Shown: one piece after another, positions 723 to 60,700 of the stretch
Layout: every line of letters begins with the position of its first letter
How positions within the stretch are numbered: the stretch's first letter is position 1
From: Podarcis tiliguerta
Taxonomy: Eukaryota
Reading direction: 5' to 3' (one strand)
Length of the DNA stretch: 64,000 nucleotides
NCBI GenBank assembly: GCA_965153285.1
Contig: OZ229115.1
Translations under genes and position numbers: made by a program
Notes under the pieces: model-generated
What the model saw: only the letters and a program-made list of their open reading frames with translations
Database searches by the model: none
What the model was told of the DNA's origin: nothing

Positions 723-755
<33 letters not shown>

Positions 756-783
756 ACTACTACTACTACTACTACTACTACTA
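722..783. repeat. Compound trinucleotide microsatellite (GCT)n(ACT)n
   Basis: Direct reading: a gctgctgct run that switches to actactact; explains the poly-Ser ORF 453..791. Confidence 0.95.
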
Positions 784-15221: not shown

Positions 15222-15332
15222 ATTTCCTCAACCCGGTGCCTTCCAAATGCTTTGTCCTGCAAATCCCATCAGCTTGAGGCAGTACAATTGTTTTAATCCA
15301 AAACATTTGGAGGGCACCAAATTGAAGACTGA
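15222..15332. mobile_element. Short hairpin MITE relic (hAT-like family)
   Basis: Inverted arms gtgccttccaaatg / catttggagggcac with a cccatcagc core; related copies at 20263, 22406, 30866, 34120 and 36328. Confidence 0.6.
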
Positions 15333-15336
15333 CATG

Positions 15337-15445
15337 ACATAGCATAACATAGCATAACGTAAGTAACATAACAACATAACATAACATAACATAACATAAC
15401 ATAACATAACATAACATAACATAACATAACATAACATAACAACAA
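15337..15445. repeat. Pentanucleotide microsatellite (ACATA)n
   Basis: Direct reading; produces the spurious CYVML ORFs. Confidence 0.95.
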
Positions 15446-29521: not shown

Positions 29522-29637
29522 ACCTGATAGACTCCCTAAGCAGTTGTTAAATCCTGTCTCCCCCCACCCCAAGTAGTCATAACCTGATAGACTCCCTAAG
29601 CAGTTGTTAAATCCTGTCTCCCCCACCCCAAGTAGTC
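29522..29637. repeat. 60-bp tandem duplication (2 copies)
   Basis: acctgatagactccctaagcagttgttaaatcctgtctccccc(c)accccaagtagtc at 29522 and 29582. Confidence 0.95.
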
Positions 29638-30865
29638 TTAATTTCCTGGCCAGTAATATTTTTATAGTTCATTCTCTCCAGGAATCCTCTTGCTCCTCTC
29701 AAATTGTGTCAAGTCTCCCAAGGAATTCCTGGGCCACCATCTGCCTTAAGGAAGATGTGACTATGGACAGAGTTCAGATACAGTCAAGAGCAAATGATCA
29801 AAACAGTGTTGTCATATCCACCGGCAAGGATATTTTGAGGTCTAGGCCTAGACTGGATGAGTGAAGAAGGAAAGGAGTGCTGGAGCAAATACAAGGGCCA
29901 GAAAACATTGCCAAAATAGTCTGTTTCCTAGACCCTACTACTGGAAATCATGTCTGGACAAAAACAATTCTGAAGATGCATGGCAGGAAAGTGATTTTAT
30001 GCGTAATTTGCAATGGTAGATGGAAAAAACAAAACAAAACACCAGCACCGCTTGCTGTGTTTTGGGGGCTAAGCTTACAATCCCAGCCCAAGATGTATAA
30101 ACAAGATAGCCACTGAATCCCACTGATGAGAATTTAGTGCAAGTCCTTAATTAAAGAAGAACTAGAAGAAGAGTGCATGTCAGTTGAACACACTCAGGAG
30201 AATGCAGGAGCTTGGTGAAATTGAACAGGGGGAAAGCAAAAAATAGAAAGTAAATGGAAATTGTTCAAAGGTAATTGAATGTATGTCTGAGCATTTATGT
30301 GTGCTAGCTAGCAATAAATACACTTTGCGGCAAAGCAAGCCAGTATGGGCAAATAAAGAAAGTGCAGAAAGCAATCAAGGGGAAGGAAGAAGCATAAGCA
30401 AGCTGAACTAAAGTACTGTTTTGAGCTGGAATGGGAGAGGAATAAAAGCCAGAGTGAGAGAGTCAGTTTGCCCTCCTGCAGCTGATGCAGAATTATAGAC
30501 ATGGCAAGTAGGACAAAGCCCACACAATTCTCTTAAAAATATAAATATACTGTACAGATACCAGAGTGAGGTACAATGCATAAAATAAATAAACCATATG
30601 ATATGATAGATGCAGTAGAAAGTCTAGCAAGATATCAGGCAGACATTCCAGGTCACTAAGTTGCTCAGTGTCAGGAAACAGGGAGCTTTTGCTGGGCTAA
30701 GACTATAGGGAGATTTAATGGGAATTCTGGGTTGACTTTTCTAAGGTGTGTGTGTATGGGGGAGAGGGAGGTGCTGCTGACAGGTGAGCATCTTTCATTG
30801 CTCTATGTACAGGGAGTTAATACAGAGAGTATAATCCCTGCAGGACAAACAGCACCATTTAGAAC

Positions 30866-54100: not shown

Positions 54101-56741
54101 GCCCTTGTAAATGTCAAGGTCAAACACAAATATATTGTACAGCACTTCCCCTGCAGTTCCCATGGACTCCCCATAGGCTCTGATGGACCCAGTTCCATAT
54201 TAAGGGGAAATCAAAGCAAAAGTTCTCTCACGCAGCAAACCCACTGCACTACATCCCAACAAATAAGCATGCATGTCCTGATAATACGTTAAATACTTTG
54301 CGGTATGGAGCTAGAAACAACACCTGTTAGAAACAAGGTAATTCCGGAAAGAAACGAGTACCAGAATGAGGAGGGAAGAGGATGCACAAATCTTTTTTGC
54401 AGGTTGCGATAAGGGAGAGCAGGGATTTTGCTTACATTCTGACCCCACTTGAGTAGCACCTACACACAGATCCTTAGTTTCTTATAAACATGCCACATAA
54501 ATCCACGTGACTCTTAAGAAACAAATACCGCATCCATATAAAATACAATCCAGATTCCATCAGAGGCTGTTCTGTATTTGTGTCTCTCCCCACCCCCCCA
54601 GCAGTTTCCAAAGTGTAGAAGAGTTTGCAAATTGTATCATGCTGTTCCTGTTAATGCAGCTCAGGCTGTTGAGGGTCCTCATCCCCAGTCAGAGCAGGAG
54701 TCAAGTAGATTTGCTAGGAAACTGTTCTGACTTCTGCAATGTTTCCCCTCCTCCTCTAGCTTATTTTCCATTGACACCTCTAGCCTGGTTTTCTGGTTCT
54801 TGGCAGGGTTAACTGGCAGACCCAGCAGGGGGAAAAGGAATGTCTCTGCCCCCTAACCGATTTCCTTTTATCACTGCTTGCTGTCCAGTTTGCAATGAAC
54901 AGTTGGCTCCTGAAAGGGTTACATTGCCAGTTCAACATGCAGGCGATTTATTACAATTCCACGATGAGGCCTAGTTTATACCACACAGACACAAAAGTGT
55001 GACCTGCAGCTGTAGAAAAGTTGTTGCCACCGTGAAAGAGCACAGGTAGTTCATTGAAGCGACACTATTTAGACTCTCGCCAAGCAGAGCAAGATGGTCT
55101 AGAGATCTCAGCAGATCAGGAAATCTTGATCTTGTCAGCCCAGCTAAGGCAACCATAAATAAAAACAGCCCTAGGGATTGTTCTCAGTTTCACCAACAGG
55201 GACCACTTTGTTCCCTGCAGTGGGTTAAGGTGGGGGGAGGGCTGTTTTGTTTTTAACAGGCCAAATGACTCGATCATGTCAAGAAATACAACTGGCCATT
55301 AAGTGAATTGGTATGAGGAAGCCTCAGCTCACTGCCGATATCTATGAAGTTGTAATTCTTAAACTGCTTCAGAACAGAACATAAAGCATAAAAGTGATTG
55401 CATTAAACAGAAGCTGGGACTTTCAGGAAACAGTTTAAGATGGACAAAGCACTGTGCAGCTCAAGATGGAAACCTGGTGTCTGTTAACTTCATTATTCAG
55501 CATGACACACACACCCCTCCTTTAAACCTATTCGATATGATTGCATTTGCCCCCAGGAGCACATAACCATTTACCCTCCTACTCAATGAAGAAATCTAAA
55601 ATAACTCGGTTTGAAAATGATGATGGGACCACTTTTTTCTGAAAAGGACATCTATTTGCTTAAATTTTGCAGGATACTTTTAAGAGAATGTCAGAAAGAA
55701 GTTTTGCCAATTTTTGATGGAAGGGAAGGGGAAGAAACCTTTATTTTGGCAGAAGGTGTTGTGCGACCTTCTGTCTCAACAGGCTCAGATCAACCTCCAA
55801 GCCTATAGGAATATGTGCCATTATAAATTTATTTTAAACAATTTACATCCCATCTTCTTTCCATGCGAGAAGCAGAGGCAGCAAGATTTCACACCATACC
55901 CTGGAACCACAACTGGGGAATGACCCTGCTAATCCACTAGTTACAGCATACATGGATATCAATTTAGACATAAGTTGAGGCGGGTGGGCAACTGCACCAG
56001 CAACGATAAAGGTCTGTCCCCACAGGGTACAAATGTGTTATGTATGAACCCCAACCCAATTTTCTTCATCAAAATTTTAATATAGATTTAACATGTGCCA
56101 GGCAGTAGTGATTGGCTCCATGGGGTTCCAAGAGCAGACTATCTGAAAAGTAGCCTACTGCTTGCTCACATTCCCCTGTTACCTTCTTTGGCTGGAGCTT
56201 ACCATGCACTGCTTTATATCAGTATTTACTCAGCCCTTTTTATGGAACACATACTGTTTTAGATATAAGTGGTGCTATTACAGGCTCACAAAAACAACAT
56301 GCGCTCAGCATTCTTAAAACATTGGCCCAAGCTCTGGTTTTTGGTGGGTTTTTAAAAATATCATTATTGCTACATTTCTACAGCATTCTCTGGCTTTACT
56401 CTTTCGAGGAACAACACATCTAAACTGCGTGGCTGCTTTTGGTTTCCTGACGCTGGGTGGCTGCATTTTGTTTCTATTCATTTTTAATTTACAAGCAGGT
56501 GTTTGAAAGGAGCCATCCCAGTAAGAGGCCCATTGATTTATGTTCTATTCCAGTAAGTTTCCTTTATTAAAAATGGCACCAGCAGGAGTAGCTTCTAAAA
56601 ATGAAGGTCTCCTATTGGTTTGACAATATGCTTGCATAGTTCACCTGCTCACATCTCACCCAACTGATTTTTAATTATTTATTTATTCACATTTTTTATT
56701 TATTCACATTATGTATGCATTGTGAGGATACAGGGTATGTA

Positions 56742-57726
56742 CCGTATTTTTCGCCCTATAGGACGCACCGTCCCATAAGGCGCACCTAGTTTTTTGGGGG
56801 GGAAATAAAGGAAAAAAATTATTTCCCCCCCAGGCGCGAGGTTGGGGAAGCCCGAGCTTCCCCCGACCCCAGCCCCCAAACAGGCAGCTCTCTGCAAGCC
56901 GTGGGAGCCCAGTGCTGGCTCCCACTGCTAGCGGAGAGGTCCGCGAAGCCTGGACGCGCTGAGCTCAGCGCGCGCAGGCTTCGGCATGCAGGCACCTCTC
57001 CGCCAGCAGCGGGAGCGCTCCCGCTGCTAGCGGAGAGGTCCGCGAAGCCTGGGCGCGCTGAGCTCAGCGCGCGCAGGCTTCGGCATGCAGGCACCTCTCC
57101 GCCAGCAGCGGGAGCGCTCCCGCTGCTGGCGGAGAGGTCCGCGAAGCCTGGGCGCGCTGAGCTCAGCGCGCGCAGGCTTCGGCATGCAGGCACCTCTCCG
57201 CCAGCAGCGGGAGCGCTCCCGCTGCTGGCGGAGAGGTCCGCGAAGCCTGGGCGCGCTGAGCTCAGCGCGCGCAGGCTTCGGCATGCAGGCACCTCTCCGC
57301 CAGCAGCGGGAGCGCTCCCGCTGCTGGCGGAGAGGTCCGCGAAGCCTGGGCGCGCTGAGCTCAGCGCGCGCAGGCTTCGGCATGCAGGCACCTCTCCGCC
57401 AGCAGCGGGAGCGCTCCCGCTGCTAGCGGAGAGGTCCGCGAAGCCTGGGCGCGCTGAGCTCAGCGCGCGCAGGCTTCGGCATGCAGGCACCTCTCCGCCA
57501 GCAGCGGGAGCGCTCCCGCTGCTAGCGGAGAGGTCCGCGAAGCCTGGGCCCGCTGAGCTAAGCGCGCGCAGGCTTCGGCATGCAGGCACCTCTCCGCCAG
57601 CAGCGGGAGCGCTCCCGCTGCTAGCGGAGAGGTCCGCGAAGCCTGCATTCGCCCCATAGGACGCACCCAGATTTCCCCTTCATTTTTGGAGGGGAAAAAG
57701 TGCGTCCTATAGGGCGAAAAATACGG
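56742..57726. mobile_element. Young Tc2/pogo-type (CCGTA-terminus) MITE carrying a tandem array
   Basis: Perfect 27-bp TIR ccgtatttttcgccctataggacgcac (56742-56768) / gtgcgtcctatagggcgaaaaatacgg (57700-57726); TA at 56740-41 and 57727-28; subterminal TIR-like repeats at about 56769-56787 and 57648-57667. Confidence 0.93.
56922..57645. repeat. 99-bp palindromic GC/CpG-rich minisatellite, about 7.3 copies
   Basis: Units start at 56922, 57021, 57120, 57219, 57318, 57417, 57516 and 57615 (partial); unit ccgctgctRgcggagaggtccgcgaagcctgggcgcgctgagctcagcgcgcgcaggcttcggcatgcaggcacctctccgccagcagcgggagcgctc. Confidence 0.97.
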
Positions 57727-60700
57727 TAAGCAACTCAGCTCTGGTTAATACATTTGCATGAAATAGTGGGGCATAGGGTCCCTCTTTGCAAATAACCTCC
57801 CATCTGAGCCAGACCCTATGGGGGAATGCCTGGAAGATACAGAGGCCTGCTTCACTTGATTCTTTCGGGGAAGGCGGTCTGTGAACTGGACTGCCATGAG
57901 ACTGAGCTCACACAGGCAAGAGTTTTCTACGTGGAAGAAGGGAGGGGTTTGTGTCCTGTTTTGCCAGTGCTTCTGCAGTACGGATGCTGACTGCCAAAGG
58001 GCTGTTTAACACTTTGCACAGCCAACATGATTTCAGCATGTCTATCACAATGAACACCATACCAAATGAAAGGGAGACTCATCCCGGTGAATGCGCTGAA
58101 AGCAAAATGGGTATGTTACAGTTGAGGTGCGGCCCTAAGCAGAAAAGACTAAACGAGAGGTGAAGGCGGGGCGGTTGAAATGAATTTGCCCATTAACCTA
58201 CAGCAGGGCGGGGGCGGGGGGGGGCTACTTTTCCACTGAACTGTTATTGAGAAATGAAATGACATGATTTTAATTATGCTGATCTCGTGTTGTACTCTGG
58301 CTAATTAACATTGCCCCACTGGTAGAAAAGCAACCACAACAGACAGCAGAACCAATCCCAAGTGAATTAGCCTATTTAACTGTAGCAGTTCTTTGTTGGC
58401 CTATCAGCTCTGTGAAAGAATACTGTATCACCTTTCCCTTTACTACAGTGTAAAGAGCATAGCCAAGAATAAGCATTCCCTCAATGCCTTTCTTAGGTTT
58501 CTTTTCCACCCTATTTTCAAAGCAGTTGGCAAAATATCCTATTTTATTTAACCATTCAACCTTGTTAGACTGAGGGACAAAAGTCTTGCCTAAGAATGAC
58601 TTGGAGGGGTCAGTTCTTCAGTATTCCATGCTCAACTATTTTATGCTCTACAATGTTGGTTTTTTATTTATTTCTTTTTTTGTTCTGCAGTGTTTCAGAA
58701 ATGCCCCTGCAACACGATCATCTATTGACATAGCTCCCGGCACCTAATGATTGTGAGACCCACCACTGGCACCTCAGTTACACTTCCACACAAAATCCTA
58801 AACAACTCCTGCAATGTTAGAAGGAGGCCCAAAGAACACCTATGAATGAATAGATGACATCAGTGAACATTTTGGAGTGATTTACAGCAGCTTTGGTATC
58901 AAACAAATGTGGTGCCTGGAAACTATCCTAAAGGGACGCCAAGAGAGCTTTTGAGCCGGTTTTAAAACTCTGTTGATTGCTGTTTTGACAATAAATAATC
59001 CCAGAAGGGAGTTACTGAACAGATTGCAGCACTGGAGGATTTTGAAACAGAGAATACAAAAAAAAGGGCGGACCATTTCTCCAAGGACTGACAGACAGTA
59101 TGTCCATTACATTTGTGCTGCACTGGGTGATGACGAACATATATTCCCTATGGGATACAAGGAAACATATATCCATGCTGCATAAAGACTCAATGCCTGT
59201 TTACAGCATTAAGATTTAGAGGTTGCCATGCCCAGGTTTCATCCTAAGACTGTTAATCTTTGATGATGATTTTCCAGTTAAAATCCCTAGACCAGTCACA
59301 GATTCTTGTATTTCTCTGTGAAATCTCTAGTCTGATGGGCACTCTGTCAGCAACTCCACGCTAGAATGTTGTTGGTTCAGATCCACCTCTGCCCTTGCTC
59401 TCTACTCCTCCAAGGTTGTGACTTAGTGCTGGTGGCTTGTTTCCATATGCTACACCTGCTCACAAGCCACAGGCAGATTAAAGAGAAGTTAAGACTCCCT
59501 GATCTCGTCATGGACTTGTTCAAATGTAAACAAGTCTGAGTGGCAATCAGGTCATCTGTAAACATGATCCTATTATACCAATCTAAAGAATGTTTCTGGA
59601 ATTTTGTGAACTAATGCAATATACAACAATATTGTTGGGAATCACACTGCCCAACTATACAAGGTGGAGAGACATTTGGTATGGTATACCCTGTTTCCCT
59701 AAAACAGACTCTAATAGGAACCTGGCTGCAATGCAAAAGCTGAGGACAAAAACACCTGCCTGAGTTGAGTCACCGTCCAGTTTTCCCTCAACATGCTGAT
59801 TGGGAAGCAACAGCTAGTTTTTTTAATTTTTATTTTGATGTGACAAGAGCTAGGCTGGCTTTGGAGTTGATTAACATCATCTGTTGCTGCCTGTGCACTT
59901 GTCCCTGCACCCTCATATGTACAGGTGTTGGTTCATGATACACATTTATAAACAAATGGGTTGTTGTTGTTGTTTTTTTTAAAAAATACCCTATAACCCT
60001 TGTACCTCACACCCCGTAGGTACCCCGTAGGCAGAAACACACCCCGTAAAGATTGTTCCTGAACTTCCCACTATAATGAGATGATGACACTGAAAGAAAT
60101 ATTGCAGAAAGGTTTGCAGAACAACTTTGTAGTATGAAGTTATCTTTTAAGAATGCCCTTCTTCAATACAACAAAAACCCAAATGTAAACCAAGCTTTGC
60201 CTCCTATAACAACAACAAAGTAAATGTCCAGATCAACTGATCCCTAACTTGACTCACAAACTTCAGCTACAATCAATGGCAGCGTGAAACGTTCCATAAA
60301 TATTGTGAGAATGCGAAAACACCTGCAACAGCAAGCAATTAACTCCTTCCTTTTATTAAAGCCTCGTTTAAATCCAGCTACATACTTCCACAGTGACTGC
60401 TAACCTTGAATTCACATTGGCAAGTGTGTCCGCAACTGGCTTTCTGTGTGGATCACTTTTGAGAACGTTTAAGACAAATGTCTGCCTGTTCTTCAGTCAC
60501 CTCTTTCCTAACCAATAAGCCGTGAAGCTACTGAAATCATTGGCAAAATTACTCTTGATGTTAACGGGGGATGGTTTGGCATAGCACACTGCAGTAAGGG
60601 GATGAATTGAGGCTGATGCATATACTAGGCTGATCCTGGCATGGTCTGACAGGCTAGTGCTCCAGTTTATGCCTGATGAGGATATAACCCAAAGAGAAGA

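What the first reader, a model, noticed from the sequence alone, without database searches (positions are those of the whole stretch)
56922..57645. The 99-bp unit is a double palindrome: a spacerless array of alternating inverted half-units
Seen: each unit has two dyad axes, GCGCGCTGAG|CTCAGCGCGC and CAGCAGCGGGAGC|GCTCCCGCTGCT. The arm ggagcgctcccgctgctggcggagaggt-ccg-cgaagcctg-g-gcgcgctgag is the reverse complement of ctcagcgcgc-g-caggcttcg-gcatgcaggc-acctctccgccagcagcgggagcgctcc, apart from one internal loop (ccg versus gcatgcaggc) and one mismatch. The array is therefore A-A'-A-A'... with about 14 dyad axes. Inference: it can extrude cruciforms, fold as one long or many short hairpins as ssDNA or RNA (a Dicer/ADAR substrate), and probably grew by fold-back/template switching and slippage. 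The (CG)n runs are also Z-DNA prone.
Basis: partly seen in the sequence, partly recalled or inferred. Interest (0 to 1): 0.7.

Follow-up and report, generated by a model that had tools for sequence, protein, structure and literature searches.

The report
Jumping gene carrying a hairpin minisatellite
The palindromic array is real, but it is the variable-length core of a young 985-base jumping element found at hundreds of places in this genome, and its two hairpins have stayed paired across related elements while their letters changed, likely because one arm is copied from the other during DNA repair rather than because the host uses them.

Summary
The 99-bp double-palindrome array is confirmed (13 perfect axes, 1 broken). 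It is not a stand-alone locus. It is the internal minisatellite of a 985-bp miniature transposon (56742-57726) with 27-bp terminal inverted repeats and a TA target duplication. At least 440 copies exist; lengths are 292+99n with n = 0-18. The orthologous site is empty in another organism's run. An intact Passer-type (pogo, DD35D) transposase element with the same terminal repeat is present in 8 near-identical copies and carries its own 119-bp double-hairpin array, from which the 99-bp unit descends through intermediates with shortened hairpin tips. Across 31 related hairpins, 17 of 30 base pairs changed on both sides. All 65 copies examined have different unit orders although 29 have identical arms, while 147 of 165 minor alleles sit in one unit only. 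Likely mechanism: arm-to-arm template switching plus slippage, mostly tied to transposition. Small RNA, editing and cruciform claims are untested. Minisatellite-bearing MITEs are known; this hairpin-keeping lineage was not found in my searches. No look-alike earlier finding of this scan was returned.

The parts
56740..56741 (.). TA target-site duplication, left copy
   Evidence: TA on both sides in every copy with both ends (57 of 60 loci had both ends; all 57 TA/TA); single TA at the empty site in run X6
56742..57726 (-). Non-autonomous Passer-type (pogo) MITE, 985 bp = 292 + 7 x 99; strand given relative to the autonomous element
56742..56768 (+). 27-bp terminal inverted repeat (3' end in the autonomous element's orientation), identical to the 3' TIR of 7 of 8 intact autonomous copies
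56769..56917 (-). Subterminal arm, about 85% like the autonomous element's 3' end over MITE bases 1-118; ends in a diverged copy of hairpin 1's arm and a 9-nt loop (56909-56917)
   Evidence: sequence
56918..57645 (.). Tandem array, 7.4 x 99 bp, each unit = hairpin 1 (46-nt palindrome) + linker + hairpin 2 (40-nt palindrome) + linker
57093..57138 (.). Example of hairpin 1, perfect spacerless 46-nt palindrome (axes at 57016, 57115, 57214, 57313, 57412, 57511, 57610)
57142..57181 (.). Example of hairpin 2, 40-nt palindrome with one G-G mismatch (axes at 56963, 57062, 57161, 57260, 57359, 57458; 57557 broken)
57646..57699 (-). Subterminal arm, 95% like the autonomous element's 5' end over 88 bp (with the TIR); holds an inner copy of the TIR motif at 57648-57667
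   Evidence: (family D3)
57700..57726 (-). 27-bp terminal inverted repeat (5' end in the autonomous element's orientation)
57727..57728 (.). TA target-site duplication, right copy

Best explanation
The array is the variable-length internal minisatellite of a young non-autonomous Passer-type (pogo) DNA transposon, likely moved by an intact transposase element of the same genome, and its hairpins are likely kept paired by arm-to-arm copying (template switching) and multiplied by slippage during DNA synthesis linked to transposition. Shown: element boundaries, TA duplication, dispersal, empty orthologous site, autonomous element with the same terminal repeat and a homologous 119-bp double-hairpin array, paired changes in hairpin arms, unit-order diversity. 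Inferred: (1) the 425-aa transposase cuts at the shared TIRs and inserts at TA; (2) the gap left at the donor is refilled from a sister or ectopic copy, and the single-stranded template or nascent strand folds into the two hairpins; (3) pausing and re-annealing on another unit adds, removes or shuffles whole units; (4) brief copying from the opposite arm writes mirror-image changes and trims hairpin tips, which turned a looped 119-bp unit into the spacerless 99-bp unit; (5) once inserted, a copy mostly sits still and gathers point mutations. The host most likely has no use for this copy.
For: Boundaries and TSD. Dispersal: 40 of 40 scored candidates are 96-100% alike over 905-989 bases; an arm-specific 26-mer occurs 440 times, one allele of a unit 26-mer 1818 times, TA+TIR 2611 times, reversed-pattern controls 0. 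Unit number 1-18 in the 29 other loci picked on the left arm alone; n = 0 form exists (4 pattern hits; 292-300 bp). Empty site: one 5474-nt contig of run X6 covers the left flank to 56741 and the right flank from 57727 sharing one TA (record 1435-1954, then 1953-2531). Partner: 8 copies with an intact 425-aa ORF, 0.37% mean nucleotide difference, TA after each 3' TIR, HTH_Tnp_Tc5 + DDE_1 + weak BrkDBD, D172/D279/D315 = DD35D; 7 of 7 extended copies have 119-bp arrays of 11.4-17.9 units, L095 has 6. Homology of units: iterated profile reaches the window's units at E about 4e-7 in round 3, 0 hits on reversed or shuffled elements; alignment shows graded tip deletions and one-base gaps on both arms. 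Covariation: 17 of 30 pairs changed on both sides, score 0.26 against 0.11 shuffled, 0 of 500; RNAalifold independently finds the stem, 10 of 16 pairs. All 3 differences between older and young majority units close a mismatch; 4 of 9 widespread derived alleles do so against 12 of 297 possible, p = 2e-4, and 4 of 5 among A/T to G/C changes, p = 1e-5. 65 of 65 unit-order maps differ, 29 copies with identical arms span 1-18 units; single-unit substitutions 0.0030 per base equal arm divergence 0.0032; 147 of 165 minor alleles are in one unit only; block duplications are visible.
Against: No step of the mechanism was observed; transposase activity was not assayed. Covariation cannot tell mirror copying from selection on structure, and the 31 rows are related and were picked by me from profile hits, with the structure taken from the window's own axis (warns of both). 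The allele test uses a threshold chosen after seeing the data and uncertain polarity (position 66 is G in deeper relatives); 3 of the 9 widespread alleles break pairing and the commonest of them is in 154 of 457 units. 18 of 165 minor alleles (8 of 49 strictly private ones) are spread over several units, so some change after insertion is possible. The MITE's 5' TIR differs at 2 of 27 bases from the autonomous 5' TIR and its arms are 85-95% alike, so the partner is a close relative, not the direct parent. Membership of Passer was not tested on a tree.
Confidence: 0.8

Rival explanations
1. The hairpin array is a selected cis-element of the transposon: it raises transposition or replicative gain (end synapsis, fork stalling and repair, or promoter/CpG-island activity upstream of the transposase), so paired changes are kept by selection among copies.
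For: Hairpin interiors are nearly universal in the lineage: local fold z below -3 in 68 of 74 elements, median -7.4; the array sits in the same 5' subterminal place in MITE and autonomous element; array-free forms are rare, 4 exact junction hits against 440 arm hits (different patterns, rough); pairing-closing alleles reach high frequency.
Against: 41 of 75 sampled elements are of other subfamilies without a TRF array of period 30 or more, and 5 more of this subfamily have none; unit number is unrelated to arm divergence (rho -0.04, n = 58); Passer donors work in cells with TIRs alone (PMC9976928, passages).
Confidence: 0.2
2. An ordinary hypermutable GC-rich minisatellite that happens to ride in a MITE and keeps changing at each locus after insertion, independent of transposition.
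For: Every copy has its own unit map; within-copy unit distance 1.86 against 3.39 between copies; 8 of 49 private alleles are multi-unit.
Against: Single-unit substitutions accumulate at the arm rate and 147 of 165 minor alleles were never duplicated; older copies have decayed, unhomogenised arrays (77-96% matches).
Confidence: 0.2
3. A host-functional palindrome at this locus: source of small RNA, editing substrate or regulatory cruciform.
For: Very stable predicted RNA fold; high CpG content.
Against: The site is empty in organism C and likely empty in two runs of the best-matching organism A; hundreds of equivalent copies exist; Rfam matches are all far below gathering score and on both strands, as any GC-rich palindrome gives (39 of 39); no Pfam family above cut-off in 21 of 31 long frames scanned in the window.
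Confidence: 0.04
4. Assembly artefact.
For: None beyond the general difficulty of palindromic GC-rich repeats.
Against: Same architecture with integer unit steps at 65 loci with unique flanks and individual unit variants.
Confidence: 0.01

Closest known systems
Passer (PS) family of pogo transposons (PMC9976928: passages, section 17, rows of Table S1; PMC7386202: passages)
   Same: TA target, TIR under 30 bp starting CCGTA, 425-aa transposase with Brk/HTH_Tnp_Tc5 and DDE_1, DD35D. The listed Anolis carolinensis PS TIR differs from this one at 2 of 27 bases (compared by eye).
   Different: The passages searched contain no mention of tandem repeats ('tandem' 0 hits) or of MITE radiations; here autonomous copies reach about 3.1-4.7 kb through a 119-bp hairpin array. 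The first 400 bases of the Podarcis muralis entry also show GC-rich repeats near the 5' end (by eye), so the trait may be wider in lizards.
miDNA4, the Tc1/mariner MITE of Xenopus tropicalis with an internal satellite (seen only through reviews PMC12628747 and PMC9659126, passages)
   Same: Non-autonomous TIR element whose internal unit occurs as one monomer or a variable array.
   Different: miDNA4 is said to have captured a pre-existing repeat flanked by AT-rich microhomologies and to seed free satellites; here the unit is inherited from the autonomous element, is a GC-rich double hairpin, and no run beyond 18 units was seen.
Xstir/Xmix and Angel stem-loop models of MITE-derived tandem repeats (through review PMC12628747, passages)
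   Same: Stem-loop formation during replication is invoked to make tandem units from MITE interiors.
   Different: Those models use whole-element stems or two neighbouring elements; here small internal hairpins are the unit and show paired arm changes.
Template-switch mutation that creates and maintains hairpins (PMC8794818, abstract and outline)
   Same: Copying from the opposite arm fixes pairing and gives multi-base compensatory changes.
   Different: Described for functional RNA genes; here the pattern is in transposon DNA with no known RNA function.
Abortive gap repair/SDSA with template switching as source of MITEs and Pack-TIRs (PMC3814204, PMC8277862, passages)
   Same: Repair synthesis after excision rearranges element interiors.
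   Different: Those cases concern deletions and captures; repeated unit shuffling in each copy is not in the passages I saw.

Membership tests
MITE / non-autonomous TIR transposon | Terminal inverted repeats | tested here: met
   27-bp perfect TIR
MITE / non-autonomous TIR transposon | Target-site duplication and unique flanks | tested here: met
   TA/TA in 57 of 57 loci with both ends; 73 of 75 in the wider TIR sample; empty site with one TA
MITE / non-autonomous TIR transposon | No coding capacity | tested here: met
   The two longest frames over the element (289 and 286 aa, stop to stop) match no Pfam family above cut-off
MITE / non-autonomous TIR transposon | High copy number, high similarity | tested here: met
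   440 exact arm motifs; arms 0.3% from majority (sample biased to copies like the window's)
MITE / non-autonomous TIR transposon | Small, homogeneous length | tested here: inconclusive
   Core is 292 bp but length runs 292-2074 bp in 99-bp steps; long copies exceed usual MITE size
Passer (pogo superfamily) | DD35D catalytic triad in the partner transposase | tested here: met
   D172, D279, D315 by motif position; motifs picked by me, DDE_1 match
Passer (pogo superfamily) | Brk + HTH DNA-binding motifs, 400-500 aa single ORF | tested here: met
   425 aa; HTH_Tnp_Tc5 E 8e-17; BrkDBD E 4e-4, below its cut-off
Passer (pogo superfamily) | TIR under 30 bp beginning CCGTA, TA TSD | tested here: met
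   compared with Table S1 rows
Passer (pogo superfamily) | Placement in the PS clade on a DDE-domain tree | not tested
Passer (pogo superfamily) | Cross-mobilisation of the MITE by the transposase | not testable with these tools
   Needs a cell assay
Minisatellite (VNTR) | Variable unit number and interspersed variant units | tested here: met
   Between paralogous copies: 0-18 units, 65 of 65 maps differ
Minisatellite (VNTR) | Allelic length variation at one locus | not testable with these tools
miRNA/siRNA precursor | Match to a known family or processed small RNA | tested here: not met
   39 of 39 Rfam matches below gathering score; processing itself not testable
Free satellite DNA | Long arrays without element ends | tested here: inconclusive
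   1818 exact unit motifs against 440 arm motifs; the 100 listed hits fall in short runs; unlisted hits and unassembled DNA not seen

The most novel reading that the evidence does not exclude
This Passer lineage carries a structure-conserved, sequence-fluid double-hairpin cassette that is rebuilt at each round of transposition and promotes the element's own spread: a DNA structure inherited and selected at the level of the transposon, whose arm-to-arm copying produces covariation that mimics a functional RNA and gives each insertion a unique barcode of its descent.
Probability: 0.2. Interest if true: 0.65.

Novelty: new variant of a known kind. Interest (0 to 1): 0.38.

Why it matters
For the finding as posed, the result lowers it: a transposon's internal repeat, not a host device. 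What remains of value: (1) a natural series of hundreds of dated copies in which hairpin arms change in mirror image, a test bed for template-switch mutation and a warning that covariation need not mean functional RNA; (2) unit maps that may record transposition pedigrees, making it testable whether interiors are rebuilt during gap repair; (3) a near-identical set of intact Passer-type transposase copies in a reptile, a family already used as a gene-transfer tool (PMC9976928); (4) several hundred recent CpG-rich, palindromic insertions, likely polymorphic, that could be fragile sites or population markers.

Tried and rejected
For X5 and X14 only the left flank was laid. The first alignment mixed orientations and was discarded. 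The top 30 DDE_1 loci (L061-L090) had no element TIR; the partner came from lower-scoring, near-identical hits. PDB sequence search of the transposase found nothing. No relation between unit number and arm divergence or arm divergence and single-unit load (rho 0.22, p 0.11). Rfam miRNA hits rejected as palindrome artefacts. Host gene context not found: 21 of 31 long frames scanned, none above cut-off; short exons were not sought. Literature searches for this combination returned no paper describing hairpin arrays in Passer elements or their MITEs; Repbase/Dfam could not be searched, so a library entry for the family may exist. The primary miDNA4 and Xstir papers were not read. Sequence look-up in earlier findings returned nothing.

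Full report
Observation. The array is there: 99-bp unit, 7.4 copies, 99% matches, 56918-57645. It has 13 perfect spacerless dyad axes with arms of 9-23 bp and a 14th broken by two substitutions; the rest of the window has one axis of 9 bp and none longer. One unit folds into a 46-nt and a 40-nt hairpin with 3- and 10-nt linkers, z = -10.5; the whole array as RNA gives z = -40.

What encloses it. 176 bases to the left and 81 to the right lie a perfect 27-bp inverted repeat pair flanked by TA. A search of the own genome with the 989-base stretch gave 2494 candidates, 40 scored, all 96-100% alike over 905-989 bases and on many contigs. Of 60 loci had both ends in view and all 57 have TA on both sides with unrelated flanks (three loci repeat earlier ones); the other three proved to have 16, 18 and 18 units. 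Length is 292 + 99n. Among the 29 other loci picked on the left arm alone n runs from 1 to 18, and an array-free form exists (4 hits; 292-300 bp). An arm-specific 26-mer occurs 440 times, one allele of a unit 26-mer 1818 times, TA plus TIR 2611 times; reversed controls 0. Arms differ by 0.3% from their majority (sample biased towards copies like the window's).

Empty site. In run X6 (organism C) a single 5474-nt contig covers the left flank up to 56741 (record 1435-1954) and the right flank from 57727 (record 1953-2531): the flanks are joined over one TA. In X5 and X14 the left-flank contig leaves the window at 56741. X4 is unresolved.

Partner. A DDE_1 search gave 110 matches. The top 30 lack the TIR; 17 lower-scoring loci were fetched and all show a TIR-like end. 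Eight carry an intact 425-aa ORF, 0.37% apart, seven with a 3' TIR identical to the MITE's. Domains are HTH_Tnp_Tc5, DDE_1 and a sub-threshold BrkDBD, triad DD35D. These are the stated marks of Passer (PMC9976928, section 17; PMC7386202, passages); no tree was built. The MITE's right end is the element's 5' end (95% over 88 bp), its left end the 3' end (about 85% over 118 bases). The autonomous copies have their own array 150 bases inside the 5' end: 119-bp unit, 11.4-17.9 copies in 7 of 7 extended loci, 6 in L095, also two hairpins per unit.

A lineage of hairpin interiors. From the first 100 exact TIR hits on contig C1, 87 loci gave 75 distinct elements (6 loci had no partner TIR in view); 73 of 75 have TA on both sides, 17 belong to the window's subfamily, and 17 others carry arrays, with basic units of about 99-123 bp. 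Interiors fold better than shuffles at z below -3 in 68 of 74. A profile seeded with the autonomous unit reached 55 of 76 sequences in round 3, including the window's units at E about 4e-7, with 0 hits on reversed or shuffled sequences. The alignment of 31 hairpin-1 copies, chosen by me one per element from these hits (one partial row dropped), shows a graded loss of the tip, from the long looped stem of the autonomous unit through forms 10-15 bases shorter to the window's spacerless axis, and one-base gaps on both arms. On the window's axis 88.6% of cells pair and 17 of 30 pairs have changed on both sides; covariation 0.26 against 0.11 in shuffles and at most 0.09 when slid. These controls do not correct for relatedness. 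RNAalifold finds the same stem, 10 of 16 pairs with double changes.

Inside the young subfamily. 65 copies, 461 units, 457 of them 99 bp; seven common variant sites; units are closer within (1.86) than between copies (3.39). All 65 unit-order maps differ, and 29 copies with identical 257-bp arms span 1-18 units. The three differences between the older and the young majority unit all close a mismatch; 4 of 9 alleles carried by 10 or more copies do so, against 12 of 297 possible changes (p = 2e-4; 4 of 5 among A/T to G/C changes, p = 1e-5, so GC bias alone does not explain it). Against this, 3 of the 9 break pairing, polarity is uncertain, and the threshold was chosen afterwards. Outside the common sites 147 of 165 alleles sit in a single unit, at 0.0030 per base, the same as arm divergence (0.0032); 18 are spread, and long arrays show block duplications. 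So the shuffling mostly predates each copy's private mutations, which points to the transposition cycle.

Mechanism. Shown: boundaries, TSD, dispersal, empty site, partner with homologous array, paired changes, map diversity. Inferred: cut-and-paste by the Passer-type transposase; gap repair of the donor with template switching, as proposed for MITE birth and Pack-TIRs (PMC3814204; PMC8277862; passages); hairpin-induced slippage between units; arm-to-arm copying of the kind described for RNA hairpins (PMC8794818, abstract). Rivals: selection on the hairpins for the element's benefit (0.2, compatible with much of the same evidence), plain post-insertion minisatellite mutation (0.2), host function (0.04), artefact (0.01). 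The first two overlap with the main account in all shown steps.

Known relatives and novelty. MITEs with variable internal satellites are known: miDNA4 and Xstir/Xmix of Xenopus, seen through two reviews (PMC9659126; PMC12628747; passages). The Anolis DNA-transposon survey has no mention of hairpins, palindromes or minisatellites in a term search (PMC3014272). Five searches found no description of hairpin arrays in Passer elements; repeat libraries and subscription papers were out of reach, and only the first 400 bases of the Table S1 sequences were seen, so an existing entry is possible. I rate it a new variant of a known kind. Interest 0.38: ordinary as a locus, moderately interesting as a natural experiment in mirror-image hairpin evolution and as a pointer to a probably active reptile transposase.

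Noticed in passing
L095 317-3462; L096-L099, L102, L103, L111; L142-L148: Eight near-identical intact Passer-type elements (425-aa ORF, 0.37% mean difference), each with a 119-bp double-hairpin array; candidates for a currently active transposase.
   Followed up: yes
L100, L101, L109, L110: A second young autonomous subfamily with an intact 425-aa ORF, identical in 4 of 4 copies by eye, and a different TIR variant; its interior was not examined.
   Followed up: partly
L123, L135, L137, L141, L161, L191, L198, L201, L204: Other MITE subfamilies with the same TIR carry different arrays (units of about 99-123 bp), most folding as two hairpins; some (L123, L161, L201) were not hit by the 119-bp profile and may be a second hairpin lineage.
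   Followed up: partly
L007 577-836; L091 2215-2474; L092 754-1011: An older, abundant 257-259 bp MITE with a related TIR and one central hairpin.
   Followed up: no
L060 about 196-202: Two elements of this TIR family lie within a few bases of each other, tail to head.
   Followed up: no
L061-L090: About 30 DDE_1 reading frames without this TIR, many on contigs C2 and C25, most with long open frames; possibly domesticated Tigger-like genes (label from recall).
   Followed up: no
window 56674-56716: A 17-bp AT-rich tandem duplication just left of the insertion; all four laid runs differ from the window by 11-21 base deletions here.
   Followed up: partly
window 29522-29641: A 60-bp tandem duplication, 96% alike.
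   Followed up: no
window 723-783 and 15332-15441: Compound (GCT)11(CTA)10 microsatellite and an (ACATA)22 array.
   Followed up: no
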